A stretch of DNA of 63,959 nucleotides, filler included, from Craspedostauros australis (Eukaryota): NCBI GenBank assembly GCA_030167865.1. It is 6 parts of 6 records of this genome, joined end to end, with 100 filler letters (N's around TTAATTAATTAA, not from the genome) between each part and the next. Parts side by side here need not be neighbours in the genome. Positions count along the whole stretch, not along the records: positions 24,014 to 43,680 come from JALAGF010006304.1; 5 more parts are not named here. The stretch is one strand, 5' to 3'. The notes under the pieces were generated by a model, which was not told the DNA's origin, ran no database searches, and worked only from the letters and a program-made list of their open reading frames with translations. The position numbers were made by a program, and so were the translations under genes. Shown piece by piece: positions 4,177 to 58,457 of this stretch. The first letter of the stretch is position 1; each line of letters begins with the position of its first letter.

Positions 4177-5760
4177 TTACTCGAAGGTCTTGGCCCATCC
4201 TTCGGGTGCATACCATTCCTGCACGGTGAGGAAGGGACGCACCTCGATCTCCGCGTTAAAATGGACCAATCGACGATGTGCGGTGTCATCTGCAGCTTGT
4301 TGACAATGTTGCTGCAAGGCTTGATTCGTGTAACGTCCGCGGCGCAAGCAGGAGCGCAGCTGGACGCTGGGTCGGGCCAAGTGGGTATCGGACTGACGTC
4401 GCAAGCCGTGGTTGGCCTGTGGCATGGCAGAGCAGATGCCGTCTTCGGCTTGATGCATGTTGTGGTGAGATCTGGTATGCACGAGCCCACCGCAAGTGCC
4501 ACCCCGCAGCGGCGATCGATACGTTGGCAAGGATGGATCGGACACCGTCTTCCACCAGTCGGAGGAAAGGGAGGTGGATGGGCGCAAGGCGAATTGGGAA
4601 TCGGTTTGCTGATTGTAGTCCGCCCAATACTTGTTCCACCAAGTGGGTCGTCGTTGTGTGTTGGATTGAGTTGGAGTGTTCAACGGCGCATCGCAGATGG
4701 CTGCCTTTGGTTTGGAAGCAAAAGGATTCCAAATGCATGGTGAACGCGTTGGGCTCGCATCCGCCTTGTTGCCGTCGTCGTATGGATCTTGCGGAGCCGC
4801 TTCGGATGGTCCGATAGAAGCTGGACCTTCGCCATCATCATCGATGGCACGTTGGTGGTCACCCTCCTCAGACTTGATGACTTTTTCATTCTCATTGGTA
4901 TCGGATTGGCGTTGCATTGGTTGCGACAGGCGTTCTCCAGTTGCCACGTCCATGTTTGTGAGTGACGATGAGATCTCATGGATCGGCCGTGCCACTGATC
5001 GCGGCGACAAAGTCGAAGTTGTAGCATGCTTGAGTTGATCTTGACGGCACGTCGATGATGAAGATTCTGTGGATGCTGAATGTGCGGTTTGCACTTGCTC
5101 CTTCGTGCGCTCTGCGCTCGTCTCATCTGCCGGGTGCGTCCAGTACGTTCCGAAGATCGATCGTGGTTTGGATGTGCAAGAACTTTGCCCGGATGATGCC
5201 TGGGTGACGTCCTTTGTCACGCGGTGCGCATCGTTGGCGAGCGAAGAATCACGCAACGCGCAGAAGGAAAGATGCGCCTCCGCTTCTGGACCAAACGGGT
5301 CATACGCAAGCTCCCGAGGATTGGTGAGGGAGGAGACCTCCGAAGCATGATCCGCCGCATTGTCATCAACGCCACATTCATGATGCACAACGTGATTCTC
5401 TCCTTCCAGTTCTGGTTGAAGGAGAGAGTCAGCTGTGCTCGTGAATTCGATTGTGCACCCAATCAACGAGGAGTCTTCCATCGTCTGCTTCTGCTGAGAG
5501 TCTTTCGCAACTGGTGGTAGATCAGCACCAAAGTTGCTGTGTGTCGCGACGGCTTTGCTCGAAGTCATGGGCGATGCTATGTTGTAGATGCCACAGAGAA
5601 GGTCCTGTGCGTGACCGTAATCATGGCCGTGATGGGAACCGCGATGGGTTGTGTTGTTGCGTTCGTAGTGGGACGACCTGAAGCCGTTGAAGAATGGCGA
5701 TTCGCCAAAGTCGCGGAATGGGGCGGCAGTTGCCATGAGGAATGCATCGTCCATCTCCAT
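4177..5760 (-). CDS. Hypothetical, largely low-complexity protein (527 aa)
   Basis: Long ORF, Ser/Thr/Asp-rich, with short motif-like segments (RSIFGTYW, LRSCLRRGRY, RRLVHFNAEIEV, WYAPEGWAKTFE). Confidence 0.7.
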   Translation of the reverse strand: MEMDDAFLMATAAPFRDFGESPFFNGFRSSHYERNNTTHRGSHHGHDYGHAQDLLCGIYNIASPMTSSKAVATHSNFGADLPPVAKDSQQKQTMEDSSLIGCTIEFTSTADSLLQPELEGENHVVHHECGVDDNAADHASEVSSLTNPRELAYDPFGPEAEAHLSFCALRDSSLANDAHRVTKDVTQASSGQSSCTSKPRSIFGTYWTHPADETSAERTKEQVQTAHSASTESSSSTCRQDQLKHATTSTLSPRSVARPIHEISSSLTNMDVATGERLSQPMQRQSDTNENEKVIKSEEGDHQRAIDDDGEGPASIGPSEAAPQDPYDDGNKADASPTRSPCIWNPFASKPKAAICDAPLNTPTQSNTQRRPTWWNKYWADYNQQTDSQFALRPSTSLSSDWWKTVSDPSLPTYRSPLRGGTCGGLVHTRSHHNMHQAEDGICSAMPQANHGLRRQSDTHLARPSVQLRSCLRRGRYTNQALQQHCQQAADDTAHRRLVHFNAEIEVRPFLTVQEWYAPEGWAKTFE

Positions 5761-7903
5761 GGTTGAATGTTGAATGTGAAGTGATTAGATGGTGTATGGT
5801 GTAGCAGATGTAGTGTCGTTGTGCTTGTGGTTTGCTTTCTCCAAGAGGACTTGCTCTTTTTGTGTGAATGAAACTGGGTCCGAAGTTCCGCAAGCGTGCA
5901 ATGACACTCTCTGCGAATGAAGTACAAGTGCAGGCCTCTGAATGAAAGACCTCTCTGGAGCGAAAGTATGGTGTGAATGCTTCTGCGTCTGCCCAACTTG
6001 TGTTGTTGTCTTGTTCGCGACTACGACTATTGCATTCGAATGTTTGTCACGAAACCGTCGACGTCGTTTGCGTTCTGAGTATCAATGCTGTTTCCAATGC
6101 ACTGTTGCTAATACTGTTGCTAATACTGTTGCTGATGTCGTCACTGAATCGCGAAAGCAATCTTTCGATGGATGCGGAACCCACGAATCTGACAGCTGGG
6201 TTCGACTTGTCCAAGTTGGTGCTTCTGGTTGCTGTGTGTGTGGGTGATTCGAGAAGTGTGTGTTTGGTTGTTGTTTCGGTTGGTGATGCACAAGGAGGCG
6301 TGACAAAACGAACTCCTCTCTGGTGAGGCTTTCTCCAATCAAAGACACAAGCAGCTGTCGGGTTCGTGTTGGCTTGTGTGATGGCGGACCGGAATTGCAA
6401 TCAAATGCGAAAGAGAGGCCAGGTTGTTGATTGTGTGATTGTGTGAATGGATGAATGAAGATGGTGATGAGGCTGATGCTCTCGCAGAGTGCAACAACTT
6501 CGATGTTGGAGGCGACTCGTCAAGATGGTGTGTGCTGTTGTGTGCTGCTGATCAATGTGGACAGTATGGTACGGGAAGAAGCGAGCTGACAGATGGATGT
6601 CGTCCCACTTCGTTTGAATTGCTCGTTGATGCTTCCTCGTTGATCCTTGCCTCTTGTGTTCAGAACACGGTATAGAGGAGAGGTGCTCTTGGAAGACGGC
6701 TTCGTTTCGTGACACCTGAAGGCATCAACCAAGCGGGATGGTTCGATCGATGGCAGCCTGAGCCGGGAAGACTCTCTCTCGTTCTGCAGACAGCACGACA
6801 CAAGCTAGTTTCGTTCGGCACGTCCGTTTCTCAGGAGCATTGCGCGACGCCGACTCCCCTTGTTGCTCTTGATGTTGGACTCGGACTTGTTAGCTTCGTC
6901 AGTGCAGTGAGGAGTGATCCCGTTGTCGCAGCCGCGATGCCTCTCTTTCAGTTGTTATTGATTGATGCTGCAACTGCTGATGCCTCTCTCCTCTTCCTTT
7001 TCCACGATGGATGCCAATGACTTGCTAACCTCCCAAGGAGAAGATCGGAAGGGAACGAACAAACGAACGAACGAACGGGATCAGCCGATCAACACACAAA
7101 AGAGAGGCACAAACAACGAGAAAAGAATCGCCGTGATGCCAGTCCTCCTTCGACACCCTCAATCCGTTCGTTTTCGTACAGTCGGAGACTACCCATTTGT
7201 AGTAGTACGAACAGCGATGGAGCATCTCAAGATGCCGTCGGCTTCGCAACGTTGATGCCTCCCCTTCTTGTTTCCCTCTTCAGGGCCAACGAATCAATCT
7301 GTTTCTGAAGCACCGATGCGTCCACGTACTTGATGTTTTCACTGTTGATGCGGTGAAGTTGACAACAGCGCGGACAACTTCCGCCTTCTTGTGTGGCTGG
7401 CAGCTGCGGCGATAACATCTTGTTGATGTCAACATTCAACGCTGGGGATGCTCATCAATATTATTGCTGCTATCCCCATCGTTCATGACAATTTCTGGAT
7501 CTAGTCGTGACACGTATTCTGTGTCTCATTCATGTCGCTGCATGTGATTCATGTCGCCGCATGTGATTCATGTCACAATGGTCGAATGAATCGAGATTCA
7601 ACGTTCTTCCTCTTCGCGATTGAGAGGTCGTAGTCTATCCAATCTATCCATACAAGTCTAGAGGTAGAGAGGTGTAGCAACATGGTGGTTTGATCTGGGA
7701 ACAATCGATGAGGCGAAGTCCGTCTGACTGTGATGCAGCACCGGCGGCAGCTTCTATCGATTCCTTTGTATTGCAGCATTAAGAGCTATATTATGAAGAT
7801 TATGACACTGGAGAGTAGTACGCTGGTGGTTGTGATTGAGGCCGTTGCATTGTATTCCATTGTATGGCAATGCAATGGTCGGAGCACCCGTGAGACCCGA
7901 ACT

Positions 7904-25110: not shown

Positions 25111-27112
25111 TGCACTGTTGTTGCCACATGGGATGTCTCTTTTTGTGATCCTTGCTCCGTTCACAATTTGTTTGCTTGTTGGTGCTTCTGCCTTTTCTGG
25201 TTCTGCCACAAATAGTACAGTAGCTGTCACTCTGCATGTAGCTGCCCTTGTGGCAGTCAAACCGTTCCAGCGTTCCAAGGCTGGGTAGCATTCACAAGTG
25301 TGCCTCAGTCCCGATGGCCAATGGCAGCTCCTGTCGTGACTGTTGCATTGTCGCCATGTCTGATTCCTGTGTGTGTCGTTCCTAGGTTGATGAGTACAAC
25401 ACGGGATCCACGTCTGGGTTTTAGGGAAACGAGCTACATTACGTCGCAGTTGTCCACTCGGTCGGACAAGTCAAAAGACAAGATACGACATGACGTACAG
25501 ACAAACAGACGGATAGACAGGATACGACACAACCACGCAAAAATTGATGGCGAAAGATACTTGTTGTTTCTGTTTTGTTTGTGCGTGTGTGGATGGTTGC
25601 GCCCCATCAACAACAACGAAGAGAGCAGCGCAGGCAACCACAACGACATCAACAACCATACCCACACCCACAACACAAAGACGTGCCCAACCCACACAAA
25701 TCCAACAAACGGAGCGACACACGACAATGACTTGAACATGGCGCCACCGCAACGCACCAACGAGATCCACCCACCATGACTGAGTAACAATGGACCATTC
25801 AAGTACGTCCAGCTTCTGTGCAATAGCTCCGACAAGCTTGAGCAGATATTTGTGGCTGCATACCATGCGAGTGCACCACTGCTTGCTCTCACCGTCGTCA
25901 GTATCACACAGTGCTGCCTCCGCCACCTGTCGCCATCGCCATCATTGCACAGCGAAATGATTACCCATCTTGGATGGATGCCGCCCCAGGCTGATTTTAA
26001 AGTGAAAGAGAAACATTCAAGTAAATTATTCAACCTGATCGCTTTAATTTGCAATGATGGACAGCGCGGCAAGGGAATGGGAAAGCCAACAAGAGAAAAA
26101 GATGAAAATCAACCAGGCCTGTTCGATCTCCAGCTCACCCAACAGCATCGCCCTTTGCTATGATTGATTGTCTGTTGTTTGTTCACCTCCGCTACTCCAC
26201 GCTCCGCCATTCCCACATGCAGTTGTCAGAATGGTGGCGTTGTGAAACACCAACGCCTAAACTTGTGCCAAGAGAGGATTGCCACCACATCCCAAAGGTA
26301 AGCAGACGATGGCGACGCCACATGGAAGCCGCGAGCAGTCCAGACAGCGGCCTTCCTGCTGACTCCGTCTTCAATGCCATCCCCAAAAATGATGATAAAC
26401 TACCCAGCTCACTACGAGCGGCAAAAGGCCCCGATGTAGACAACATACTGTTTCCCATATACACACTATCTGATTTGAGACACCAGCGGCGACGGCTTTG
26501 GTCAGGAAGCGAATCCAACCTCCACAAACTGACAACTCATCCTCTCTTGTTTCGGTCCCTTCTCTGCCAGACACTTGCATCCCCAGCGTCATGCCACCAT
26601 GGCGACGGCAAGGCCTTGTCGATGTTCTCACGCACCATCTCCACATCCCCAAAAAATTCAAGCACAAACATACCAGATGTGGCTCGTTGGAATCAAATCG
26701 CCTGGCAACGTTCCCTGAGTAGTTCATGGATAGAGCTCATCTGTGGCGTGGACCTCGATGCCCCATCCTGGCGAACAACAACACGACTTCGAATATCACG
26801 TTGGACAATGACAAGGGTGTGAGCGAGCATCTTGGACTTTACTGCTATATATCATGTAATAATGTGCACTCCACATACTCGTAGAACATTGCAGCATGGG
26901 AACTGTGACAATGATCAGATGCGAGGACAGCAACACACTACCATGTGTATGAAAAAGTCAACTAGAATGAAGCCCTCTAAATCTCTTAATCTCAGTAGCC
27001 ATTGCCGACGGTGAAGAATGCTCGAATCGCCAACAGCACTCGCGGTCCTTCCCGCAAGTCGATTGCAAGTTGCATTGCGATTGGCATAACTGCAGAGATC
27101 TCTGTTTGTATT

Positions 27113-30100
27113 TTAGTATGAGCTATCCCGAGTTTGGCGAACCTCGGTGTAGATCCTGGTGGTGATGGACATGGACATCATCTCCTGCAGCAGCAGTTTG
27201 CACGCGTACGGAATCTCAATTTGGCAGATCTTCGTGGGACGGCCGACGCACATCGGCGTGCGGCATTCGTACGTCATCTTCTTGAGGTTAGCCTGTGCCG
27301 TCAGACCACAACGTTCGCAGATGTGGATACGGTACTGATCGGAGTTGCAGAAGAAGCGATCGCGGATGAAGTTAGCGCAACCGTGAGTGATCAAGCAATC
27401 GCGTTCCATCTCTCCCATGCGCAATCCGCCATCTCGGGAACGACCCTCCAGCGGCTGTCTGGTGAGCATCGCGACTGGTCCACGGGCACGAGAGTGAACC
27501 TTGTCGTCGACAAGATGCTTCAAGCGCTGGTAGAAGGTCGGGCCGATGAAGACGCGAGCGCACATGGGACGGCCGGTGTGTCCTTGGAACAGATGCTCGT
27601 TGCCGTGCTTCTGGTACCCCATGGCATGGAGTCGCGTGCTGATGTCCTCGACAGTCACGTCGGTGAACGGCGTGGCATCACCCTCGCATCCCTGGAAGAC
27701 GACGACCTTCCCAAGAAGGCACTCGATGAGCTGGGCGATGGTCATACGCGATGGAATAGCGTGCGGATTCACGATAATATCAGGCACAAGCCCCTCGATG
27801 GTGAATGGCATGTCTTCCTGACGGTAAGTCATACCGATCGTTCCCTTCTGCCCGTGGCGCGAGGCGAACTTGTCTCCGACCTGCGGGATGCGGACGTTGC
27901 GGATGCGGACCTTTGTGAACCGGTATCCCTCCTTTGTGGTACTGATGAGCACGTTGTCGACGATGCCGTTCTCGTTTGCCTTCATGGATGTGCTGCAATC
28001 GCGCTTGGTGTACCGAGAGGGCATGTTGGCGGTGGAGTCGATCGGGGCGGTCTTTCCAATCAGCACATCGTCACCAGACACTCGTGTTCCTGGCGCCACG
28101 AGGCCGTCTTCGTCCATCTTGCTGTAATCTCCGTGCTTCATTCCACGCGTGCTATCCTGAGACGGTTTCTCAAACAGTTCCGAGGTCATGGAATTTATCG
28201 TGCCGATGGTGCTGGACTTCTCCTGGTCGATGTAACAACGGTAGTAAGAGCTGCGGAAGAGACCACGGTCGATGGCGGACTGATTCATGATCAGGGAATC
28301 TTCTTGGTTGTATCCGGTGTAGACCATGATGCCTACGACGACGTTCACACCGCTTGGAAGCTCGCGGAAATGCAGGAACTCCATGGCACGGGTTGTGCAC
28401 AGGGGCTTTTGTGGGTAATGAAGCACGTGTGCCATCGTGTCCATGCGGACCTGGTAATTCGATGCGTAGATTCCCATCGCTTGCTTGCCCATGGCACTGC
28501 GCAATTGTGTGAAGGCATGTTGTTGGTGTTTGGCGAGAATCGAAACACGGACATGTTGTCATGCAAAGTGATATCGGGTGCGTCGACAGAATGAATGAGC
28601 ACGTGATTGAGGAAGTGATGAGTGAGTCAATGCAATGATCAGTTAATCAATCGATCAATGGATCAGTCAGCCAGTCAATCGGTCAGTCAAAGAGGCCACC
28701 CATCACCGGATGGTGTGCAGAGAGCAAACGGAAGCCCGAGCGTATGCAAATTGATTCGCACACTCGCACACTTGCACACCGACCCAAAGCCCAGCGGCAG
28801 ATACCACTTCCTGAACGCGACTCACCTTTGGTATGTGTTACGTGGGGACTGGTTGTGATCGGGGAATGGGATGATGGAGGCGCAGACTCCCAAGATCATG
28901 GAAGGGTGAATCTCGCAGTGCGTGTAAGTGGAGGAATATGAATCCTCAGAGTCAAGATCTTTCGGTTCCATGGCTACCATGGTCGTTTCCTCTTCCTCCG
29001 TGTCGATGTATTCCACGATACCTTCCATCAACAGATCGGTCCACGACAGACGCTTTTGGTCCGGGTTGATGCCCTGCAACTGCATGATGTGCTCCTTCTT
29101 GATCACCAGCTGCTGATCTTGGACGACGAACAGCGGTCGGCAGATACGCCCAGCATCCGTGTAGATGCGAACCTCCTTCTCCGCGATGTCTCGGACGATG
29201 GACACTTCCGCATCGATGTCCACCATTCTTCGCAGAGATCGGAATGTGTCGACGAGTGCCTTGGGATCACGATGGATTCCCACCCAGTTTCCGTTCACGA
29301 AGATCTTGCACGTGTTGGGCTCGGCGATGACGGATGGCAAGATGTCGGTGAGGTTTTCCGTGCTGAATTCCTCCAAAAACTCCATCACTGGCACCTGCGC
29401 GGTTCCCGTTGTGATGTACGCCATGAGGGCAAGGTTCTTCACGAGACCGACGGCCTGTCCTTCTGGCGTTTCGGCAGGGCAGTTGTGGGTGACGAATCCA
29501 TTGGAGACGAACGTGTGAATGTCGCTGACGGTGGTCAGGTCCATCACGATGGGGCACTCATCGTGCCGCACCTCCTCGATGGATTCGATGGTGGCGTACA
29601 TCGTGCCTGTTGCCAGGTCTGCCTTCGACGCCTCGAGGAATGCTCCCCACGTCATATCTTCGTGATCTACAGCATCTTCACAAGCAGCAGCAGCAGCATG
29701 CAAGCAGGAGCGGCTGTATTCTCCGCAGATTCGTGCCTGGTTGGTCTTGCTTTTGTTGAACGCAAAGCCGACATGGTTCAAAAACCTGATCATGTTCTCG
29801 TGGGTGCTGTCGAGACTAACGGGAGCATTTGCCGTCTGTCTTTCGATTGTCGCGATACCCAAGGATCCAAGCATCTGTTCAAGGTCGCGACCAAAGTGCA
29901 GCGCACGATGTGTGGTCAGTGACAGAGTAGGTGGATCGAGACGACTTTGGACGGACCCTTCGATTGCTGTGAAAGTTGGTGCGGAAGCAACAGCGCCAAA
30001 GACGCCCGACAGGTACGCGGCCTGAACGTTCGATGATCCTTGAAGGATAAACGAAGGCACCTGCGGGGTTTGATCAGCACTGTCGCCCGAGAGGGACTGA

Positions 30101-32758
30101 AGTGCCAGCAAGAGACGAGCGACAGGACCGTCCATATTGAGTTTCCAACAAGACGACGCGCCTGCTGGAGCGTTGAAGCGTTCGCGAGAGATGGACTGTT
30201 CCAACAGCGACGAATCACCGTCGTATCCGATCGTTTGCAATGCAGCCTCGATCTCATCGCAATCGGCTTGAGATGCAACGTGCATTGCGACGGATGCCGA
30301 GCCTCTGTCCATGATATTGCCCATGGTAAAGTACCCAATCATCTTTGCAAACATGCCGAGGTGCTTGCTATTGGAAGTGAGCGGAAGCAGTCCCGATCTC
30401 TCCAGGCGTTGCAGATCGGAGATAGCGGTTTTATCATCCTGGCCGATGTCACGAAGGAAGTGCACGAATGCTGTGCCATCCAAGATGGTCGTCGCAGATA
30501 TATCCGAATGGACGTTGCTGTTGTAGCTGCTATCGTCCCCAGTGGCACATGCACCGGCGATGATCGGTGTCGGATGCAGAAGCACCGATCTGCCGACCGA
30601 CAAATCGCCAGCAAGGTCGAACTTGCCCCCAAATGCATTGCCGGACTCGACGGCGAAGGCGTGATCCTCCGTCGCCACGATGGCACGTCCTGTGGTCGTT
30701 TTGATTTTCAGAATTCGTTTGCCGAAGTTCTTCGCCTCGAACTGCTGATACGCCACGACGCCGGACAGCACCTTGGATCGATTCTGCGGATTGACGACGG
30801 CGACATGGGCTGATGATGGCGCATTCGCCTTGACGAGGTCGCCGATCTGCGCGAGGGTGTTGTCAGCGAGAAGGACCGTGGTGTCCGGCGCCACACAAAC
30901 CATCCCCCAATGAGTGTTGTGCAACTGACGCGGCTTTGCCTGCTTTCCGGTTCTGGCCAGCGGAGTGTTGCACCGACGTAAATGTGACAGCGACGATGCG
31001 TACGTCAATCGATTCAGCACCTGCGACACACCTGCCTTTCCTGCATTTCCCTTATCTCCCCCTATCATTTGCAATGGCATGCGCGGAAGCATGGTGCGGA
31101 TTGTATTGGAGCGGACCAGAGAAGCAGCCTGTGTGAGAAATTACGTGACAATTTTTTTCGACACTTCGGCACGACAAGGCGATTTCGCGTGCAACAATCC
31201 CGACACGAGCAACCTCCAGCAATGGAAAGCAAGGCAGCGGACACAGAATCAACTTACAATTTCCTGTCGCCAGACTGTACTTGAGACCATCCGTGATGTG
31301 GTTGCTCTTGATGGCCGCGCCGATATTGAAGACCTTGCCTTCGTCAAGGCATCGCTGCAAGTGCTTGCGCACATCCAGCGTGAGCTTGCGGAAGAGGAGA
31401 CGGAAAAGACCACCGAGAAGGGGACCCGCGAGATCGAGTCGCTTCTTGCCGAAATGATCACGATCATCCTCGTTGGCGCGTCCCAGTTTGCACATGAGGA
31501 GCTTGTGCACGGCGTATCCAAAGAAGAATCCCTTCTTCGTCTCGCAGTGCTCTTCGATGCCGACGTGCGGCAGCACCTCCTTCTGCAGGATGGCGGATGC
31601 GTAGCGGATACGATCGTCCTTGGTGACATCGCGGGCGCTGCCACGACGTCCGATGAAATCGAGCGCCACATCCTGCCGCTGGATGACGAAGGCCTCCTCG
31701 AGGGATGGACGGAACAGATCCATCATCTCGCCGTCCGTGAGGTCGTACACGACGTGCTCGATGATGTCGCGATCGGCGACGTAGCCAAGGGCGCGGAAGA
31801 TGACGACGACGGGCACGTCGGTGCGGATGTACGGCAGCGTGGAGCGAATCTGATTGCCCTCGATCGCGCCGCGACCCCCCTTTTGGTACATCTGCAGGTA
31901 GAGCGTGGAGACGGGGCGCGTGGAGTTCTCCACCTGCGAGCGGGTCTCGATGACCCAGGAGAACTTGGACGGCTGCTTCTTGCGGAAGGCGTAGACGTGG
32001 TTGTTGCTGAGGCGCTCCTGCGCGATGATGACCTTCTCGGAGCCGTTGATGACGAAGTAGCCGCCCTGGTCGTAGATGCACTCGCCCAAGTCGCTGAGGT
32101 CTCTGTCGTCCTTGTCGCTGAGCACGCAGAACAAGCTCCGGAGCATGATCGGCACGTACCCCAGGAACTCCTTCTTGGCGTGCTCCGTGGAGGTGGCCTC
32201 GCCCATGTCCTCGTTGGGGTCCGTGATGTTGACGTCCTTGAGCACGTGGTACATGTTCATGGATATGTCGACGTAGAGCGGCGCGCTGTAGGTGAGGTTT
32301 CGCAGGCGCGCCTCGTGGGGGAACATGTTGGTGACCGTTCCGTCCTTCTCCACCGTCGTCGGCTTGCTGAGGTAGACCTGGCCGAAGTGGATCTCGAACA
32401 CGGGCTTGGTCTCCGACGCCTGCTGGTTGTCGAAGGCCTCCTCGTCGAAGCCCACGGTGTGCTGCAGCTCCGGCGAGACGCGGATGTCGCCGCTGTCGTC
32501 GATGAGCTCCTGCATGGTGTTCTGGATGAACTCGTCGAAGCTGTCCAGCTGCTGCCGCACGAGACCCTTCTCCTCGAAGTAGGCGGAGATCACCGCCCAC
32601 GAGTCCTCCTGCGTCACCGGCATGTCCTCCTCGTCGATCTCCATCATGCCTTCCTCGCCCTCTCCTCCTCCTTGGCCCTCCGCCATCATCATGCCCTCGC
32701 CGTTGCCCTCCATCTCACCACCGGCCGCCGGGTCCTCCTCTGTGTAGTAATCCGCCAT
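27113..32758 (-). CDS. RPB2: DNA-directed RNA polymerase II second-largest subunit, 3 exons (32758-31258, 31061-28826, 28496-27113), containing an intein
   Basis: [72 protein letters not shown] and a C-terminal Zn site. GT-AG introns 31257-31062 and 28825-28497 restore LATGN-W-GDK and NTYQ-S-AMGKQ. Confidence 0.98.
29482..30897 (-). mobile_element. Intein (472 aa) with degenerate LAGLIDADG homing endonuclease domain
   Basis: 1416-nt in-frame insert in [16 protein letters not shown]. Block [13 protein letters not shown], block [13 protein letters not shown] (TxxH), blocks [24 protein letters not shown], +1 Cys. Central [18 protein letters not shown] and [10 protein letters not shown] resemble endonuclease blocks C, E and H. 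Confidence 0.96.
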
Positions 32759-33457
32759 GGTCGAATGGTCGAATGCTCGAATGATCCAATGATTGTCTTG
32801 CGATCCTGGAGTGTGGCGATCTTTTGCTTCCTGCGATCTATGATATATTATATTATATTATATTATGTTGTGGAAGAGGGTAGTGCGCTGTGCTGTACTG
32901 TTGCTCCACTTGGTCTGGACTGCCAACGTCCTGGATGTAGTGACTTGCTTGTGGTGGAAGATGTGTAATACTATGCTGCATACACGTGATGAATCGTGCG
33001 GTGCCCCCTTGTGGCTCCGATCAACAATCTGGTCTGCCCAACCCCAATCCTCTTTTGGATGATGATCGTGCGTGTCGCTCTGGTTGCCACTGCGATCCGA
33101 ACGGCGCGCGAAGAATCAACACGACAATGAACGGAAACGGCAACAACACCACAAACCCAAACACCAACCACAACGATGATGGGCAGCGACATCGTGTTGG
33201 TGTTGGGATGTGTGCTCGGTCTGTCCGCCGCCAGTGTAGTAAATAGAAAGCGGACGATTTCGGTGGTGGTGCAACGGACACTCTTGACATTGTGACAGGC
33301 TGTCCGTCAGAGATGTCTAAACGGGTATTGTCCGACGTAGTTCATAGTCTAGCAACTCTTCACAAGCAGAGACAGAGATCCACACGCTTCTCTGACGCGA
33401 AATGGCGACAAGGAAGCAACATCTTCAACGTCTGCATCCCATTTGTATCTTCAGCTC

Positions 33458-34831
33458 TTAATCCTTCATCTCATCACCATCACCATCGCCAGCCTTTCTT
33501 TCTTCGCTCCCTTCCGCTGCCTTCTCCTCCTGCACTGAAGCCAAGACCGCCGCAAGGAACGCTTCGATGGGATTGTTGCTCTCCACAAGCACGCGCTGGC
33601 CAGCCGATGCGTCGAGTTGGAAGTTGGCGAGGACCGAATGGTATCCATCCAGACTGCCGTTGTCATCGGGCATGAGCGCCGCCGTCAATGAACGCAGAGT
33701 CGATTGCATTTGGGGACTTCGCAGGTTCTCCTCCAAATGTGTCGCCGAGCGTTGGCCTTCTGGAAGCTGTTCCATCAAGCGATTTCGCACACTGTCCTGC
33801 GCCAGCAGGTCAGTGATGGCCTGCGGTGTCACAACTTCCTGCAGCCCGACTGGTCTTCGTTGCTGCTGGTGCTGTGCGGCTTGTTGTTGCAGACCGGCCA
33901 TGGCTCCCTGGAGATCGGCGAGGGTCAGCACGCCAGCACCGCTTGGAGCTGATGCTGGCACAGCCACGGCTGTTGCGGTTGTTGTCGTCGTTGTTGTTGC
34001 TGCTGCTGTTGCAGTACCCGCTGCTGAACCCTCAGTCTCTCCTCCCTGAGGCATTCCCAGGTTCTCAAGGATGCTGGAAAGTGCATCCACCTGCTGCGTG
34101 GTCGCAGTTGCCGATGCCGACGCCGCTGATGGTGCTGGACTCGCACTGGTAGCGGAAGGATCATTGCCTGTTGTGGCGGTGTCTGCATCAGCACCTGCAC
34201 TTGTACTTGCATTCGCAGTGGCAGTCGCACCTGCGTTACTGCTACTGCTGCGAGTTGCAACTTCCTGCTCAGCCGATTCCGACTCGGCAGGCTTCGTTGG
34301 GTGCTTGAGGATGTCGTTGATCTTCCCCACAAGCCCCTCTTCGATCTCCTGGTCTTGCAGCCACAACATCTTCCATTCGTTGTCCAATTTCCAGTAGTAC
34401 ACCTCGCGGCATGGGTTGTCGTCATCTTCAATGGTGCGGGTGTTGGTCCTATCATTCGCCATTGGGACTGCATCTGTGTCTACATCTACGTCTGCAGCAT
34501 CCATCGGGTCCGCCTCTGGTTCCTGCAGCGATGCAACGTTGGTCACCTTCTTGAGGGCGACAGGCGACGTGATGCGGATGGTGTCGGACACAGCCTTCTC
34601 GCGTCGATCGTACCACTCCCACAGCAGCGCATCCTCGCTGTTGTACCGCAGCTGCACCTTGGCACGGCGCGTATCCGGAACGCACCAGTATTTTCCGTTC
34701 TCCTGCTGCGTCATCTCCATCTTGCCTGCCTTGAAAGAGATCAGAGGCTGGGGCTCCTGTCTGGCTCCTCTTGGGCCTCCCATGGCAGCGGCCCCTCCAC
34801 CGCCCAACGCGTCAAACAGTTCCGAGTACAT
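33458..34831 (-). CDS. RPN13: Proteasomal ubiquitin receptor Rpn13/ADRM1
   Basis: N-terminal Pru-like LISFKAGKM..CVPDTRRAKVQL..WEWYDRR..MLWLQD, Ala/Thr/Ser linker and C-terminal UCH37-binding-like LMEQLPEG..ENLRSPQMQSTLRSLTAAL. Confidence 0.88.
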   Translation of the reverse strand: MYSELFDALGGGGAAAMGGPRGARQEPQPLISFKAGKMEMTQQENGKYWCVPDTRRAKVQLRYNSEDALLWEWYDRREKAVSDTIRITSPVALKKVTNVASLQEPEADPMDAADVDVDTDAVPMANDRTNTRTIEDDDNPCREVYYWKLDNEWKMLWLQDQEIEEGLVGKINDILKHPTKPAESESAEQEVATRSSSSNAGATATANASTSAGADADTATTGNDPSATSASPAPSAASASATATTQQVDALSSILENLGMPQGGETEGSAAGTATAAATTTTTTTATAVAVPASAPSGAGVLTLADLQGAMAGLQQQAAQHQQQRRPVGLQEVVTPQAITDLLAQDSVRNRLMEQLPEGQRSATHLEENLRSPQMQSTLRSLTAALMPDDNGSLDGYHSVLANFQLDASAGQRVLVESNNPIEAFLAAVLASVQEEKAAEGSEERKAGDGDGDEMKD

Positions 34832-35327
34832 CCTTGCGTGTATGGTTTGTTTGTATTTGTGTTTTGCGTGTGTTGATACACTCTCTTGTATTGGAGTTGT
34901 GCGTGAGACAGAGATGGCACTCCTTCAGGTGAGATTTGTGTTCATGAGGTCTCCATCCAGGTTGCGTGTGGCGAATGTTGTGCCAGAGAGGCCTTCAACT
35001 CCTCTCGTTGTTGCGAACTTTGAAGCGAAGGATTTGACGGGAAAGGATCTCTGTGAGTCATGAATCTTCCGAAGACATCAATGATGTTCGTGAGCGGAAT
35101 GAAACGCAACTTGCACATGTTCGCGCCACGTTTCGTCACTCCCACAAGAAAGCGGGAAGAGAAGATGGAGGGACATCACCATAAATCTCATGCATCCGAG
35201 GTGACCACGATGGGGAAGAGCAAATCGCACATGTGCTGCGCTGCGCTGCAGACACAACATTGAGGCAGCAGCACAAAATGACAAGCGCAGTCATCAGCAT
35301 TGCCATCTCATTGAAGGCGACACAGAG

Positions 35328-52369: not shown

Positions 52370-54166
52370 ATGAGCGAGGAAGAGGAATTGAGAGACATCC
52401 CTCTGTCCAATCCGACTATCAAGAGAGAAGAAGGTGCGAGTGAGACTCCACCACGACAAGAGAAGGAAGCAGCCGTGGCTACTGTCCTATCAGGCGCAGA
52501 CGCAAGCGCCATCGACGAGACCGAAGAGGAACGGTCTGCAAGACTACACCGCGAGAAGGAGAGGATCCTCAAGGCGATCAAGCAAGAGGAGACTGGTGTG
52601 ACGAAGAGCATTCGCACAGCCAAACAGAGTGGGAAAAGTGAGACACCACCAGGAGGAGAATTTGTGAGCAAAGCAATCCTCGCGAAACAACGAGCAAAAA
52701 TCGAAGAATCGACAACACAGAAACAAACGGAAATCAAGGGCGCGAGCGCACCAACAACAAAACAACGAACCAACATGGCGACATCAGCCAACATGAACAA
52801 GCAACGCATCAAGGCGCCAATGTTCAGTGGTGAACAGGAAGACTACAGCGCATGGGAGTCCCAAGCGAAGGCATACACTTGTGCACAGAAGACAAGAGAC
52901 GTGATGTTGGGTAAGACGAAGATTCCAACAGTGAGTGAGATCGCGGCAGCCACCGACGATGCCAAGGAAGCAATGGAGGAAACCTACGAACTGGGATGCA
53001 ACTGCTTCAGCGATCTGATCCTCATGATGGATGCAGAGAAAGGAAAGGGCAAGCAGGCCATCCAGTACATCAACTAATGCGTCTCCGACGATTATCCCGA
53101 AGGAGATCCACACGCAGCGTGGAACGTTCTTGCGGAGAAGTTCCGTCCATCCGATGCAGCAACGAAGATCAAACTCAAACGTCAATTCAACAACGAAAAG
53201 ATGAAGAGAGACTCGGATCCCGACATCTACATCACGCAACTCGAGAGCCTACGATCGCGTCTCCACGATGTCAAGTACGAGATCACAGACGAGGAGATGA
53301 TCATGCAAATCCTCAGCACGGTGAGCAGCAAATACAAAACTCACATCGTGAACTTCCATCATCAACTCACGTTTAATCCGGAAGTGGTTACCATAAATGC
53401 AATCAGAGGAGTACTCCGCACAGCACACGCCACTCGTCAAGGAGGCAAGGCGTACATCGACGATTTCCAAGACAGCAACACGAAGAGCAACGACACCGGC
53501 TTCACAAGCACCGGTAACTTCAAGGGGACCTGCCACAACTGTGGTGTGTATGGTCACAGATCCGCCGATTGCCCAGAACGCAAGAAATCGAACAACAATA
53601 ACAACAACAATAACAACAAAATGAACGGAAAGCGCAACAAAGGAAGCGGCTTCAAGGGCAAGTGCAACTACTGTGGTATCTTTGGACATCGCGAGGCAGA
53701 GTGCCGAAAGAAGAAGTTCAACAACAAGAAGAAGGCCGACGAACAGGCCAACACAGCAACGGAAGGACACGACAAGAGCGGGCACGAGATGGTACTCTCG
53801 GCAAAGAACATACCGCTCTACATGTTGGTGTCCGACGACTACATCGAAGACTCCTTCTTTGATAACTTCGAGTGCGTTGGGAATGACGACGAAGTGCAAG
53901 ACGATGAGATCGTCCCGGAGTGGCTCAGCAAAGAGCCAATCATCCACAAGGTGGATCCAAGACGCGAAGTGAGCTATGAATGCTGCTTCAACGCGCACGA
54001 CCTGATCGGTCCATACGGCGACGGAGCCGAGATGGGCAAGGAGGCCATCGATAGCGACATCGAAGAGGCCATGAACGAAGAGGCCGACGATGAGACCAAC
54101 AAGAATGATAGAGGCCAATACGAAACGAACGGCGGCGCGGAACAACAGATCGGGCATCTTCGATGA
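52370..54166 (+). pseudogene. gag: Copia gag with internal stop (TAA 53075-53077) and two CCHC zinc knuckles
   Basis: PMFSGEQEDYSAW, DPDIYITQLESLRSRL, CHNCGVYGHRSADC and CNYCGIFGHREAEC; the frame continues past the stop. Confidence 0.85.
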
Positions 54167-54832
54167 AGATGACAGCGACGAAATCGAAGACCATCCAGAC
54201 GACAGCTTCAACCCAAATGAGCGTGTCGTTTACCCAGGGAATATCGAATTCCCACCGATTGAGAGTCCCAACAACTCAAACTACCTGCATCGTCATGATA
54301 CCATCCCATACGGAACGGCAACAGCATTGAGAATCCAGAAGCAACTCATCTTCGATGCCGTAATGGAATCAGGAGTGAAACTGTTCCCAGGAATCGCACA
54401 AGGAGTGCTCAGACCAATATGGGTGAACATGATGGGATCCATCTATCCAAGAACTTCAGATCGATCGAAGAGATTCTTGCCAACCCGGTCATCATCAACC
54501 GACTGTTGGAAGCGGATGAGACAGAGACAATCCCAGAGACGGATCTGCATTACATCCTTGGAGGATGCATGCGCGTGCTCTTACGCGAACGACCACGCGT
54601 CAACCCTTATGATCCAGCCACAGGATCACATCGGAACAGTACGATTCCATCGGACTACGCGCAGCTATCCGATGAGACCGACGACGAACATCACGAGAAT
54701 CCATGGAACGAATATGGAGTTCACGTCGACGAAGAGGACGAAGACAACATCATGACCGATACAGCTGCAGCAGCTGTGGAGCAGCTCCATGAGCTGAGCA
54801 CTCGATACAAAGACAAGGTCAACAAGGACACC

Positions 54833-57800
54833 TGGCTCGCCGACAGTGGAGCTTCGTGTCACATCGTCAATTCAGACGCCGCTCTCTNNNNNNNNNNNNN
54901 NNNNNNNNNNNNNNNNNNNNNNNNNNNNNNNNNNNNNCAATTCAGACGCCGCTCTCTTCAACGTGCGGCACATCAAGTCATTCGTCCAAGTGGGAGACAG
55001 TACGAAACTGGACTCTCCCAAAATGGGATCCATTTGCTTGAAGGTCAAGCAACGAGACAACACTGGCCACATCATCCGGCTCGATGACGTGAAGTACACA
55101 CCNAAAATGGNGGTGAACCTTTTCTCCACGAACAAGGCTCTGTACAACGGNTACCAGCTTGGTANCAACGGCATTCTNATGGACATCATCAACGGATCCG
55201 GAACGAAGATCGTGTTCGATCGAGTCTTCCCTACATCCAACGGATTCATCACGGGAGTGCAGATGCATCCCATCATGCCGACAGACGACGACAAGGCTTG
55301 CACAGCCATCATCAAAGGCCCATCGAAAGAGATCAACGCGGTGAACTTGCATCGAATGCTCGGCCACGCGCCACTCGAGACCATGAAGCGGACAGCCGCC
55401 CAATATGGATGGAAGATCATTGGCGAGATGCCAGTATGTCGCGACTGCGCGGTCGCGAACGCAAGAGTGAAGAACATTCCGAAGGCAACGATTCCAAGAG
55501 CAACTCGCCGCGGCGAACGGCTCTTCATTGACATTAGTTACACTAAACACATAAGCTATGGAGATAAACGCTACTGGATCCTGATCGTGGACGACTGCAC
55601 GGATTACTGCTGGAGTTTCTTTCTCAAGAACAAAAGTGATCAACCAGGGTACATCAAACGATTCATCCAAACAATCAAGTCACAGACTGGTGATCAACAG
55701 ATCATCTTCCGTGGAGACAACAGCGGAGAGAACAAATCCACGCAGGATACTCTCATCGATGCAGGACTCAACGTGAAATTCGAATTCACGGCATCGAACA
55801 CGCCGCAACAGAACGGCAGAGTGGAACGCAAGTTCGCGTACCTCTATACCAAGATCCGCTCCATGCTCAACGGAGCACAACTCGACGAAGAGTATAGGCA
55901 TGGCCTATGGGCAGCAGCTGCGAGCACTGCCATCGCCATCGCCAACATCACTGTAGTGAAGAATCAGAAGGAGTCACCACATCGCCAATTCTTTGGCAGC
56001 GATCCACCATACGCGGATGCACTCCGCACTTTCGGAGAGGTGGGTGTTGTGAAGACTACCTACAGCGGGATCACCACCAAACTCAAGAATAGAGGAGAAG
56101 AGATGGTGTTCATTGGATATGCACACCAACACGCATCAGGGGTCTACAACATGTACAGACCATCGACCAAGTCACTGGTCTGCTCTCGCGACATCAAGTG
56201 GCTCAACCAATCATACGGACAATTCCGTGGCTGGGCACCAGCACCGAACATGTCCAGCGAAACAGGAACAACAGATGCAGACGGCTTCACAACCATCGGA
56301 CGGAAGGGAGAAACGCCGAAGACGGCAACGCATCGAACATCAGAAGCAAAGAGAGTATCTTTTGCTGACACTAACAAGTATCATATCCTATCGGACAGCG
56401 ATGATGAGGATGATGAGGAGGATGGAGCAGTGACTCAACCAATCCATAACGACGACGAAGATGGAAGTGAATCTAATTATGAGGATGACGAGATCACACC
56501 ATCTGGCAACGAAGCCGACGATGATACAGGTGTTACCCCTCCGAACACACCAGCGAGGTCTACACATGACACACCATCCAGACCTCCACCGAGCAAACCA
56601 AGCAAGCGTGACATGGCTAGAAAGGAGAGAATCCGACGTCACGAATCACGAGGCAGGAAGGGAGAAACTAATCCTAAACCAACTACAGGGAAGAGTATTC
56701 CAAGAGCTCTGCGTGAGCTTGCAGACTTCAACGAACGAGGTCGAAAGGAAGAAGGCTATGAGAGCGATCCATCATCCGATGAGTCGAGTGACGAACTCAG
56801 CGATGAGATAACTGACGAGTCCAACAACGAAACTACAGATGACGAAGAAATCACAGACGAAGATGAAGAGATTGAGATCACTCATCATAGCACAACTGGA
56901 TTATACGGGATGAATGCAATCATTACCGAATCACCAGCGATCGACATCGGACTGTCGATGCAGGACAAGAAGAAAGAACCAGAGAAGTACATCGAACCAA
57001 CGACATTCGATGGAGCCTTCAATCACCCAGATCCCATCCATCGAAAGGGATATCAAGCAGCCATCAAAAAGGAGTTCAACTCCATGGATACACAAAAGGT
57101 GTACAGCAAGATCAAACGAGACGCCATCCCACGCGACCGCAGATGCTGCAAGTGTAGATGGGTCTTCAAGCTGAAACGCAACGGCACACATCGAGCGCGG
57201 CTCGTTGCATGTGGCTATTCACAAATCGCAGGAGTAGACTTCCAAGAGCATTACTCACCCGTCATCCANNNNNNNNNNNNNNNNNNNNNNNNNNNNNNNN
57301 NNNTGATCAAGAAGATGGACTGCGCACTCGTCGATGTCGTAACGGCATTCCTACACGGAGACCTCGACAAGGAGATCTACATGAACTGTCCCAACGGGAT
57401 GGATCATCAACCAGACGAAGCCCTGACCCTACACAAGCCAATCTATGGACTTGTGCAGAGCACCAGGCAATGGTTCAAGATGTTGGTGTCGACCCTCAAG
57501 AACATCAACTTCGAACAGAGCGCAGCAGACCCGTGCCTGTTCTACAGGAAGACGAATGAAGGAAGCATGATCGTGGCCATCTATGTGGACGATTGCTTCT
57601 GCTGTGGAGACTCCAAGGCACTGGAGACATTCCTGAAGGACATCCAAGGCAGCAAATTCAAGGTAACAATCGAGCACGGACTCGGAGACTACCTCAGCTG
57701 CAACATCGAACTGAATCACAACAAGATCAGAGCGACATTGCGTCAACCACATCTCATCCGACATCTCATCGAAGAGTTTGGAACCAAGGTTGAGAAGATG

Positions 57801-58457
57801 CAACGCTACGCGACACCGGGAACCCCGGGTCAAATCATTGTACGACCATCTGAAGATAACGGACTGCAGAAGGTCGGACCAGAAGAACATGCCGAATACC
57901 GCCGAGGCGTCGGTATGCTACTCTTCCTCATCAAGCACTCGCGACCAGATATCGCGAACCCTGTGAGGGAACTCTCCAAGGTATTGATCGGACCCACCAA
58001 GGCCGCAATGAAGGAGATGTATTGGATCATCAAGTATGTGATCGATACAAAGGAATATGGATTGAAGATCCATCCAGCACGTCCAGACAACGACGGCTGG
58101 GACATGGAGCTCTTCTGCGACAGCGAATATGCAGGAGACAAGAACACGAGAATCAGCGTAGGAGGGTTCATCCTATACCTGTGCAAGGTACCAATCCTTT
58201 GGCNNNNNNNNNNNNNNNNNNNNNNNNNNNNNNNNNNNNNNNNNNNNNNNNNNNNNNNNNNNNNNNNNNNNGCAAAGGAAATCTTCTTCGTCGTGCAGCT
58301 ACTCGAAAGTGTGGGCGTCCCAGTGAAGACACCGATCAAGGTCCGCGTGGACAACATCGGGGCGATCTTCATAGCCAAGAACCCATCAACATCCCAACGA
58401 TCGCGGCACATCGACGTGCGCCATCACTATGTGAGGAACATGGTAATCAACAAAACC
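54833..58457 (+). CDS. pol: Copia pol: protease, GAG-pre-integrase, integrase, RT, RNase H (with N gaps)
   Basis: WLADSGASCH; HRMLGH..CRDC; LFIDI, IVDDCT, RGDNSGE, QQNGRVERK; RARLVACG, DVVTAFLHG, IYVDDC; FCDSEYAGD, VDNIGAI, RHIDVRHHYVR. Confidence 0.93.

What the first reader, a model, noticed from the sequence alone, without database searches (positions are those of the whole stretch)
29482..30897. Intein in the nuclear RNA polymerase II RPB2 gene of a probable diatom
Seen: a 472-codon in-frame insertion splits the conserved [25 protein letters not shown] motif. It starts with Cys, carries TEDH (block B), ends in His-Asn and is followed by Cys+1, so precise removal restores canonical RPB2. 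The host gene has two spliceosomal introns, so it is a eukaryotic nuclear gene. Established: these are the class 1 protein-splicing residues. The site is just before the beta-D loop II region (about yeast Rpb2 C523-E529), near the active centre. Nuclear inteins are rare and mostly fungal; RNA polymerase second-subunit inteins are reported sporadically (Chlamydomonas, chytrid and zygomycete fungi, Dictyostelium, large DNA viruses). Inference: Pol II function here depends on protein splicing. I do not know of a described diatom RPB2 intein; horizontal acquisition, possibly through a giant virus, is plausible but untested.
Basis: partly seen in the sequence, partly recalled or inferred. Interest (0 to 1): 0.92.

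Follow-up and report, generated by a model that had tools for sequence, protein, structure and literature searches.

The report
Self-splicing intein in diatom RPB2
The RNA polymerase II second-subunit gene of a pennate diatom carries a protein-level self-splicing insert (an intein) at a site already known from a chytrid fungus and giant viruses, so it is a new host group for a known element, not a new kind of element.

Summary
On the minus strand, window 30897..29482 is an open 472-codon insert between HWGMV and CPAETPEG of a three-exon nuclear RPB2 gene. It starts with Cys1, has TEDH at residues 76-79 and ends in His-Asn before Cys+1. Two NCBIfam intein models pass their cut-offs. An AlphaFold model (pLDDT 83) matches solved endonuclease-bearing inteins. 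The extein is 83-92% identical to diatom RPB2 and nests among pennate diatoms. The neighbouring genes are ordinary nuclear genes.

The site is almost certainly the published RPB2-c allele of Batrachochytrium, equal to yeast Rpb2 Cys523. Of 118 intein segments parsed from the retrieved proteins, 29 sit at this site, and two giant-virus MAG contigs carry mini-inteins there.

The LAGLIDADG endonuclease has lost both catalytic acids, so the element is probably immobile.

The nearest relative is an allelic intein in a second diatom-like RPB2 from metagenomes. Its exteins are about 91-93% identical to the window's, but its intein only 40%.

Named pennate diatoms such as Phaeodactylum, Pseudo-nitzschia and Cylindrotheca have the empty site.

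I found no report of a diatom nuclear intein. No RNA or protein data were available, so splicing is inferred. Verdict: new member of a known kind, moderate interest.

The parts
27113..32758 (-). Nuclear RPB2 gene. Exon 1 is 32758..31258, intron 1 is 31257..31062, exon 2 is 31061..28826, intron 2 is 28825..28497, and exon 3 is 28496..27113 including the stop.
   Evidence: Pfam Rpb2 domains 1-7 are spread over the three ORFs. The spliced CDS is 5121 nt with a single terminal stop. The extein is 83-92% identical to diatom RPB2.
31062..31257 (-). Spliceosomal intron 1, 196 nt, GTAAGT..TGATAG. It splits the Trp codon of LATGNW|G.
   Evidence: The splice restores [21 protein letters not shown].
28497..28825 (-). 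Spliceosomal intron 2, 329 nt, GTGAGT..GCGCAG. It splits the Ser codon of NTYQ|SAMGKQ.
29482..30897 (-). Intein of 472 aa, precursor residues 556-1027, in frame within exon 2.
30562..30897 (-). N-terminal splicing region, intein residues 1-112. It holds Cys1 (30895-30897) and block B TEDH (residues 76-79, 30661-30672).
   Evidence: TIGR01445 scores 38.9 bits against a cut-off of 24.5 over residues 1-82. C1, D78 and H79 are invariant in 17 aligned sequences. This region is 55% identical to P0005.
29608..30561 (-). Degenerate LAGLIDADG endonuclease-like domain, intein residues 113-430. The motif 1 remnant is [13 protein letters not shown] (30313-30351) and the motif 2 remnant is [13 protein letters not shown] (29983-30021).
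   Evidence: The model matches solved LAGLIDADG enzymes and endonuclease-bearing inteins. The catalytic Asp columns of relatives hold Gly193 and Val303 here. There is no Pfam LAGLIDADG hit at E<=0.1. This region is 30% identical to P0005 with many gaps.
29482..29607 (-). C-terminal splicing region, intein residues 431-472. Block F is [13 protein letters not shown] and block G is NGFVTHN with His471-Asn472.
   Evidence: TIGR01443 scores 16.3 bits against a cut-off of 15.6. D453, H461, F463 and N472 are invariant. This region is 79% identical to P0005.
29479..29481 (-). The Cys+1 codon (TGC), first residue of the C-extein CPAETPEG. It equals yeast Rpb2 residue 523.

Best explanation
The 1416-nt insert encodes a class 1 intein at the fork-domain RPB2-c site of the nuclear Pol II second-largest subunit gene of a pennate diatom. 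After the two introns are removed, the mRNA is translated into a 1706-aa precursor. The intein then excises itself by the standard four steps. Cys1 makes an N-S acyl shift. The N-extein is transferred to Cys+1. Asn472 cyclises with help from His471. An S-N shift then leaves a normal peptide bond, giving a 1234-aa RPB2 that reads ..[13 protein letters not shown]... The site lies inside the enzyme's cleft, so Pol II from this gene should depend on that splicing. The central LAGLIDADG endonuclease domain keeps its fold but has lost both catalytic acidic residues. It has also lost a helix-turn-helix-like segment that relatives keep. The element is therefore most likely an immobile resident, not an active homing element. 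What is shown: the open frame, the motifs, the profile matches, the predicted fold, the host identity, the allelic relatives and the endonuclease decay. What is inferred: retention in mRNA, actual splicing and loss of mobility.
For: The insert is an open 472-codon frame with Cys1, TEDH, His-Asn and Cys+1. TIGR01445 and TIGR01443 both pass their curated cut-offs, and an RtcB intein model matches residues 1-396. The AF2 model has pLDDT 83.2 and pTM 0.85. Its best Foldseek matches are the TliVMA intein 7qss (E 2.8e-14), PI-PkoII, PI-PfuI, PI-SceI, I-DmoI-type enzymes and mini-inteins. The insert borders TGT.. and ..AAC offer no GT..AG pair that would restore the frame. Codon use resembles the host's: RSCU r is 0.78 between intein and extein, against 0.85 between the two extein halves. 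Relatives sit at the same site in 29 of 118 parsed intein segments. Two of these are in giant-virus MAG contigs, and one is in a second diatom-like RPB2, found on two contigs. All residues that are invariant in the 17-sequence alignment are kept here. The extein is a true diatom RPB2, and its neighbours are presenilin, COG8, a tRNA methyltransferase and Rpn13. RPB2 inteins of Anaeramoeba were shown to splice by mass spectrometry (PMC10710043, passages).
Against: No transcript or protein evidence exists for this gene. Pfam Intein_splicing scores 30.3 bits, below its gathering score of 35.8. A sequence search of PDB chains found nothing. GC3 of the intein (0.638) is lower than that of the extein (0.780). 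I could not check whether the genome holds a second, intein-free RPB2, because no genome is held. The loss of endonuclease activity is read from two alignment columns and a model, not from an assay.
Confidence: 0.88

Rival explanations
1. The insert is removed at the RNA level as an unusual intron, and its open frame is incidental.
For: No RNA data cover it. The annotated Fistulifera solaris RPB2 models skip this very spot as if it were an intron.
Against: The insert is 472 sense codons with every intein block. No GT..AG pair at or near the borders would restore the frame. The two real introns are 196 and 329 nt and about 50% GC, against 55.7% for the insert. The predicted fold is confident.
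Confidence: 0.03
2. This copy is a dead or redundant RPB2, either a viral relic or a pseudogene as in Phytophthora ramorum. The intein need not splice, because another intein-free RPB2 does the work.
For: The rest of the genome could not be searched. Goodwin 2006 describes such a relic (PMC1635734, passages).
Against: The 1706-codon frame is intact across three exons with canonical splice sites. The extein is 92% identical to the nearest diatom RPB2 and has a short terminal branch within pennate diatoms. GC3 of 0.78 is typical of a well-expressed gene. The splicing residues are intact.
Confidence: 0.05
3. The intein is a recent arrival from a giant virus and still homes, so it is a polymorphic, active element and not an old resident.
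For: Allelic mini-inteins in two GVMAG contigs are 41-47% identical in their best segments. The intein is patchily present among pennate diatoms. GC3 of the intein is lower than that of the extein.
Against: Both LAGLIDADG catalytic acids are replaced, by Gly193 and Val303. No retrieved relative exceeds about 40% identity over the whole intein. Codon use is close to the host's. The nearest intein by tree path is the other diatom-like one, not a viral one, although support is only 73/86.
Confidence: 0.07
4. The insert is an assembly chimera or contaminant joined into the diatom gene.
For: Only one public run held any part of the 6-kb stretch, and it did not cover the intein.
Against: Both junctions are in frame to the codon at a known intein site. 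An allelic intein sits in a similar diatom-like RPB2 on two other contigs. Composition is continuous across the junctions.
Confidence: 0.02

Closest known systems
Bde RPB2-c intein of Batrachochytrium dendrobatidis (Goodwin, Butler and Poulter 2006, PMC1635734)
   Same: The host protein is the same (RPB2, fork domain) and, by indirect evidence, so is the insertion point. The size is similar (488 vs 472 aa). Both start with Cys and carry an endonuclease-type middle part. By eye, both share the general pattern C(L/V)xxDT.V.L near the start.
   Different: The host is a chytrid fungus, not a diatom. I compared the sequences by eye only, from the supplement text. That supplement gives no exteins for Bde, so site identity rests on alignment positions 843 and 853 in the Fig. 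3 legend. The state of the Bde endonuclease was not examined.
Dictyostelium RPC2-a inteins (Goodwin 2006; Green, Novikova and Belfort 2018, PMC5784728, supplement 1 part 18)
   Same: They belong to the same sequence family by eye. D. lacteum-2 ends ..ECPEICDFTTESDYHSMISNGMVTHN, against ..[26 protein letters not shown] here. Retrieved relatives of the window's intein also occupy this neighbouring site (20 of 118 segments).
   Different: They sit 10 residues downstream (ETPEGxx|CGLVKN) in the Pol III paralogue of Amoebozoa.
Site-c mini-inteins of giant-virus MAG RPB2 (L002, L003, P0011, P0012)
   Same: The site is identical (..HSTQWGLV|C...[15 protein letters not shown]). Best-segment identity is 41-47%, and the block F/G sequence is the same.
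   Different: They are 215-219 aa long with no endonuclease domain. Their hosts are AT-rich viral RPB2 proteins about 45% identical to the diatom extein. The direction of any transfer is unresolved.
Allelic intein of the metagenomic diatom-like RPB2 P0005/P0333
   Same: It is the nearest relative found. It is sister in the best tree, with support 94 (quick) and 73/86 (careful). It sits at the same site, has also lost the first LAGLIDADG Asp and has the same deletion before the C-terminal splicing region. Its extein flanks are 93% and 91% identical.
   Different: The intein is only 40% identical overall and 30% in the endonuclease part. It keeps the second motif's Asp. Its host groups with Thalassionema, not with the window's raphid-type relatives. 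Its intron positions differ.
Anaeramoeba RPB2 inteins (Gallot-Lavallee et al. 2023, PMC10710043)
   Same: They are nuclear RPB2 inteins of a protist, two of which were shown by mass spectrometry to be spliced out (passages).
   Different: The lineage is different, and its genomes carry dozens of inteins. I did not determine their insertion sites. The supplements I could search (2 of 5 files) mention no diatom.

Membership tests
Class 1 intein (Hint splicing domain) | A nucleophile (Cys, Ser or Thr) as the first residue | tested here: met
   Cys1. It is invariant in the 17-sequence alignment.
Class 1 intein (Hint splicing domain) | Block B TxxH | tested here: met
   TEDH at residues 76-79. D78 and H79 are invariant.
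Class 1 intein (Hint splicing domain) | C-terminal His-Asn followed by a +1 Cys, Ser or Thr | tested here: met
   His471-Asn472, then Cys+1.
Class 1 intein (Hint splicing domain) | A match to curated intein profiles above threshold | tested here: met
   TIGR01445 scores 38.9 against 24.5, and TIGR01443 scores 16.3 against 15.6. Pfam PF14890 scores only 30.3 against a gathering score of 35.8.
Class 1 intein (Hint splicing domain) | Hint fold | tested here: met
   The predicted model (pLDDT 83) aligns to the Mtu RecA, Npu and Ssp DnaB mini-inteins and to endonuclease-bearing inteins. This rests on a prediction, not a solved structure.
Class 1 intein (Hint splicing domain) | An in-frame insert in a conserved host motif, whose removal restores the host sequence | tested here: met
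   70 of 88 diatom-like RPB2 entries show the uninterrupted motif.
Class 1 intein (Hint splicing domain) | Protein splicing demonstrated | not testable with these tools
   No RNA or protein data were available. No RNA holder was listed.
RPB2-c intein allele (Goodwin 2006) | The host is the Pol II second-largest subunit | tested here: met
   Pfam Rpb2 domains 1-7 are present. The extein nests inside eukaryotic and diatom RPB2. The best PDB matches are RPB2 chains.
RPB2-c intein allele (Goodwin 2006) | The same insertion point as Bde RPB2-c | tested here: met
   The evidence is indirect. The Fig. 3 legend puts BdeRPB2-c at alignment position 843 and Ddi RPC2 at 853, both in the fork domain. Dictyostelium RPC2 C-exteins begin CGLVKN, which is exactly 10 residues after the window's Cys+1. 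The Bde exteins themselves were not available.
RPB2-c intein allele (Goodwin 2006) | Sequence homology to the Bde intein | not tested
   I compared only by eye with the text of the supplements. I did not feed a sequence taken from a paper into any tool.
Active LAGLIDADG homing endonuclease | A two-motif LAGLIDADG fold | tested here: met
   Model helices 180-191 and 289-303 carry the motif remnants. Foldseek matches I-DmoI, I-Tsp061I, E-DreI, PI-SceI and PI-PfuI.
Active LAGLIDADG homing endonuclease | A catalytic Asp or Glu at the end of each motif | tested here: not met
   Relatives read ..TDGH and ..GGDGS. The window reads ..TMGNI (Gly193) and ..GAVAS (Val303).
Active LAGLIDADG homing endonuclease | A profile match to LAGLIDADG families | tested here: not met
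   No Pfam LAGLIDADG family matches at E<=0.1, whereas relatives P0003, P0004, P0006 and P0009 carry PF14528.

The most novel reading that the evidence does not exclude
The endonuclease-dead intein is an old resident of pennate diatoms that has been kept because splicing has become useful. One possibility is a conditional switch (redox, metal or temperature sensitive, through Cys1 and Cys+1) on the supply of mature RPB2 and so on Pol II assembly. Its true spread in algae would then be hidden because gene annotation cuts it out as an intron, as the Fistulifera solaris RPB2 models suggest.
Probability: 0.07. Interest if true: 0.8.

Novelty: new member of a known kind. Interest (0 to 1): 0.42.

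Why it matters
The 2018 survey of eukaryotic inteins lists nuclear RNA-polymerase inteins only in fungi and Amoebozoa, and lists no nuclear intein in photosynthetic stramenopiles (PMC5784728, passages and supplement). A diatom case extends the host range of the RPB2-c allele to a major group of marine primary producers. The pair of a diatom intein and giant-virus mini-inteins at the same site could be used to test virus-mediated intein transfer in the sea. The case also shows that an intein can persist in an essential gene after its endonuclease has decayed. On the practical side, it warns that homology-guided gene models may delete such inserts together with essential exon sequence. The intein may also be a compact eukaryotic splicing element worth testing as a tool in diatoms. 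None of this changes what is known about how inteins work.

Tried and rejected
- **RNA evidence.** No RNA holder was listed. The one run laid (X1, contigs) covers only 27045-27389 and 32940-33000 and nothing of the intein, so it says nothing on expression.
- **Own genome.** None is held, so a second RPB2 or further intein copies could not be sought.
- **Earlier notes.** Look-ups by place and by sequence were empty.
- **PDB sequence search with the intein.** No hit at E<=1.
- **Protein search at similar lengths (259-826 aa).** No hit. The tool warns that this is weak evidence.
- **First viral scan with the single protein.** It gave only one weak locus, L001. The scan with alignment A1 worked.
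- **Metagenome scan with the two diatom inteins.** It returned 16 loci. I examined only L079, which is an AT-rich non-diatom RPB2 with four inteins. The other 15 have 23-38% best-segment identity and were not examined. No further diatom-like host was found.
- **Are the two intein-bearing diatom hosts sisters?** With all columns, including P0005's intron read-through, the constrained tree was better by 12 lnL and p-AU was 0.70. With the 283 clean columns the constraint cost 29.4 lnL and p-AU was 0.024. I trust the second result, but the group was named after seeing a tree.
- **Giant-virus donor.** Not resolved. The careful intein tree leaves the backbone open.


Full report
**1. Observation.**
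The feature lies on the minus strand. Window 30897..29482 translates to 472 residues without a stop, from [10 protein letters not shown] to NGFVTHN. The plus-strand frame of the same stretch has 5 stops. The other minus-strand frames carry only short ORFs there. With its flanks the reading is ..[13 protein letters not shown] | intein | [17 protein letters not shown]... TEDH is at intein residues 76-79, and His471-Asn472 precedes Cys+1.

**2. The host gene.**
- Three minus-strand ORFs carry Pfam Rpb2 domains 1-7 in order.
- Reading the junctions and joining them in a script gives exon 1 at 32758..31258 and intron 1 at 31257..31062 (GTAAGT..AG, 196 nt).
- Exon 2 is 31061..28826, intron 2 is 28825..28497 (GTGAGT..AG, 329 nt), and exon 3 is 28496..27113.
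- The CDS is 5121 nt with one terminal stop. The precursor is 1706 aa, made of a 1234-aa extein and the intein at precursor residues 556-1027.
- Cys+1 aligns with residue 523 of yeast Rpb2 (1i3q_B) and residue 510 of human RPB2.
- Large neighbouring ORFs match presenilin, COG8/Dor1, a tRNA U5-methyltransferase, Rpn13 and copia-type retrotransposon proteins. This is ordinary nuclear DNA, not a viral island.

**3. The organism.**
- A search with exon 3 listed the best 120 of 7955 proteins with E<=1e-100. Apart from one odd 2287-aa arthropod entry, the top rows are 85-92% identical and include Fistulifera, Thalassionema, Skeletonema, Discostella, Thalassiosira, Rhizosolenia and Ditylum.
- The bolidophyte Triparma follows at 76%, and other ochrophytes at about 70% or less.
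- Over the whole extein the figures are 83-92% for diatoms, 74% for Triparma and 62-69% for other eukaryotes.
- Trees place the window inside the pennate diatoms. Eight near-identical rows were left out, and 26 rows were left out for speed.
- The 90% clusters of its nearest neighbours hold Nitzschia inconspicua, Pseudo-nitzschia multistriata, Phaeodactylum tricornutum, Cylindrotheca closterium and Bacillariaceae MAGs.
- The host is a diatom, most likely a raphid pennate.

**4. It is an intein.**
- NCBIfam intein_Nterm (38.9 bits, cut-off 24.5) and intein_Cterm (16.3 bits, cut-off 15.6) both pass. An intein-bearing RtcB model matches residues 1-396.
- Pfam Intein_splicing matches end to end but at 30.3 bits, below its gathering score of 35.8.
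- An AlphaFold2 model built on a 17-sequence alignment has mean pLDDT 83.2 and pTM 0.85.
- Its best Foldseek matches in the PDB are the TliVMA intein (7qss, E 2.8e-14), PI-PkoII (2cw7), PI-PfuI and PI-SceI. LAGLIDADG enzymes (I-Tsp061I, I-DmoI, E-DreI) follow, and then the mini-inteins of Mtu RecA and Npu/Ssp DnaB.
- The residues invariant across the alignment (C1, D78, H79, F81, D453, H461, F463, N472) are all present.
- The DNA borders..ATG GTT|TGT GTG.. and ..CAC AAC|TGC CCT.., offer no GT..AG pair that could remove the insert and restore the frame.
- Intein GC is 0.557 and GC3 is 0.638, against 0.580 and 0.780 for the extein and about 0.505 for the introns. RSCU correlates at r = 0.78 with the extein, against 0.85 between the two extein halves. 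The insert therefore uses the host's codon dialect, with a weaker GC3 bias.

**5. The endonuclease is decayed.**
- In the alignment, relatives end their two LAGLIDADG helices with ..TDGH and ..GGDGS. The window has ..TMGNI (Gly193 in the Asp column) and ..GAVAS (Val303 in the Asp column).
- A segment of about 40 residues between the endonuclease and the C-terminal splicing region is present in P0003, P0006, P0007, P0010, P0015, P0016, P0018 and P0021. It is absent here, in P0005 and in P0008.
- No Pfam LAGLIDADG family matches the window's intein at E<=0.1, whereas four relatives carry PF14528.
- The fold is kept, but the enzyme is most likely inactive. This is an inference, not an assay.

**6. 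The site and the family are known.**
- Goodwin et al. 2006 (PMC1635734; abstract, passages, section 30 and one supplement read) named three RPB2 sites. Bde RPB2-c (488 aa) and Ddi RPC2-a are both in the fork domain, at alignment positions 843 and 853.
- The supplement of Green et al. 2018 shows that Dictyostelium RPC2 C-exteins start CGLVKN. That is exactly 10 residues after the window's Cys+1.
- The window's site is therefore very probably RPB2-c. The inference is indirect, because the Bde exteins are not given.
- The intein searches returned 12 proteins and 188 proteins at E<=1e-3, of which the best 150 are listed.
- Of the 161 proteins retrieved, 93 have RPB2-like exteins.
- Of the 118 intein segments I could delimit, 29 sit at site c and 20 at the +10 site. 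A further 16 sit at NxYQ|SAMGKQ, 8 at DHNQ|SPRN and 3 at CIPSRM, and 42 are in other hosts or sites.
- Apart from P0005, all these hosts are far from diatoms, at 29-56% extein identity.
- P0008 falls among cellular eukaryotic RPB2 on a long branch. Most of the rest fall outside the sampled eukaryotes, together with giant-virus-like sequences.

**7. Giant viruses.**
- A scan of IMG/VR with the alignment found 137 relatives, of which 77 loci were kept.
- I examined two, L002 (a 271-kb GVMAG contig) and L003. Both carry a 215-219-aa mini-intein at exactly ..HSTQWGLV|C...[15 protein letters not shown], with best-segment identity of 41% and 47%.
- So allelic viral inteins exist. In the careful intein tree, however, the backbone is unresolved, and the window's intein is not nested in the viral group. 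The direction and route of any transfer remain open.

**8. A second diatom-like host.**
- P0005 and its cluster mate P0333 (ENA, two contigs) are partial RPB2 proteins with an allelic 491-aa intein.
- Against the window, the N-extein flank is 40/43 identical and the C-extein 218/240. The intein is only 182/452 identical overall. It is 60/110 in the N-terminal splicing part, 33/42 in the C-terminal part, and 89/300 with 57 gap columns in the endonuclease part.
- The two inteins are each other's nearest relatives, with SH-aLRT 94 in the quick tree and 73/86 in the careful tree. That is suggestive, not firm.
- On 283 clean extein columns, P0005 groups with Thalassionema and P0190 (100/94). Forcing it to be sister to the window costs 29.4 lnL, with p-AU 0.024. 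With all columns, including P0005's intron read-through, the test went the other way (p-AU 0.70).
- Thalassionema, Phaeodactylum, Pseudo-nitzschia, Cylindrotheca, Skeletonema, Thalassiosira, Discostella and Rhizosolenia all show the empty site.
- Of 88 diatom-like entries, 70 match the uninterrupted motif. One more does so with HFG (P0172). One skips the site (P0170). The other 16 do not cover it, among them P0171.
- The simplest reading is one old gain in pennate diatoms with several precise losses, or a few transfers among diatoms. The data do not decide between these.

**9. Mechanism and dependence.**
The site lies on the cleft side of the fork domain, which Goodwin et al. argue must be freed before the enzyme can fold (passage). 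If this is the only RPB2 gene, Pol II depends on splicing. That, and splicing itself, are inferred from conserved residues and from the experimentally shown splicing of other RPB2 inteins (PMC10710043, passage).

**10. Novelty.**
- Seven full-text searches found no report of a nuclear intein in a diatom: RPB2+intein; intein+diatom; intein landscape; intein+RNA polymerase+Nucleocytoviricota; inteins+Phaeodactylum/Thalassiosira; intein+Bacillariophyceae; and RPB2+diatoms+protein splicing.
- Green 2018 lists nuclear RNA-polymerase inteins only in fungi and Amoebozoa. Its three readable supplements have no Bacillariophyta or Thalassiosira entry.
- The Anaeramoeba paper's text and the two supplements I could read name no diatom. 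Its PDF appendix and two other data files could not be read and might bear on this.
- The element, its site, its family and its mechanism are all known. What is new is the host group and the decayed state in an essential nuclear gene. Verdict: new member of a known kind, of moderate interest.

Noticed in passing
P0170 and P0171 (NCBI Fistulifera solaris RPB2, 1112 and 1096 aa), compared with window precursor residues 536-1130: Both annotated homeologues jump to ..[10 protein letters not shown], one from ..HNTHWGM and the other from ..NTPLA 19 residues earlier. They leave out the intein site plus about 100 essential C-extein residues, including CPAETPEG. The models look as if an insert at this very site was cut out as an intron, so F. 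solaris may hide the same intein.
   Followed up: partly
P0003 (559-1045 and 1056-1576) and P0004 (524-703 and 714-1232): Two homologous inteins sit only 10 residues apart in one RPB2-type protein, at site c and at the +10 Cys (ETPEGxx|C). P0009 carries a relative at the +10 site alone. The same intein family seems to move between the two neighbouring sites.
   Followed up: partly
L079:1-5349 and 5662-6435 (metagenome contig): An AT-rich RPB2 carries four inteins in one gene. They are a mini-intein at site c, one at DHNQ|SPRN, one at NIYQ|SAMGKQ, and one at GDKF| that ends in WTGN like the published RPB2-b inteins.
   Followed up: partly
P0013 (668-905) and P0017 (676-1066): Close relatives of this intein (about 42% identity in the splicing parts, with the same ..NGFVTHN|CP.. 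end in P0013) sit in a large AT-rich protein that is not an RNA polymerase. This suggests non-allelic spread. The host protein was not identified.
   Followed up: no
P0005/P0333 compared with window 28497-28825 and exon 3: The second diatom-like RPB2 has no intron at the window's intron-2 position (NTYQ|SAMGKQ is continuous). It does have one after ..NYQIRMDTM, where the window has none. Intron positions therefore differ between the two intein-bearing hosts.
   Followed up: partly
window 53078-58505 and 60407-62788 (+): There are copia-type LTR retrotransposon ORFs (gag, zinc knuckle, RVT_2, retroviral SH3-like domain), apparently in two copies or fragments.
   Followed up: no
window 33458-34924 (-): An Rpn13/ADRM1 homologue lies next to RPB2. 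It has a long Ala/Thr/Ser-rich low-complexity stretch between its Pru and UCH-binding domains.
   Followed up: no
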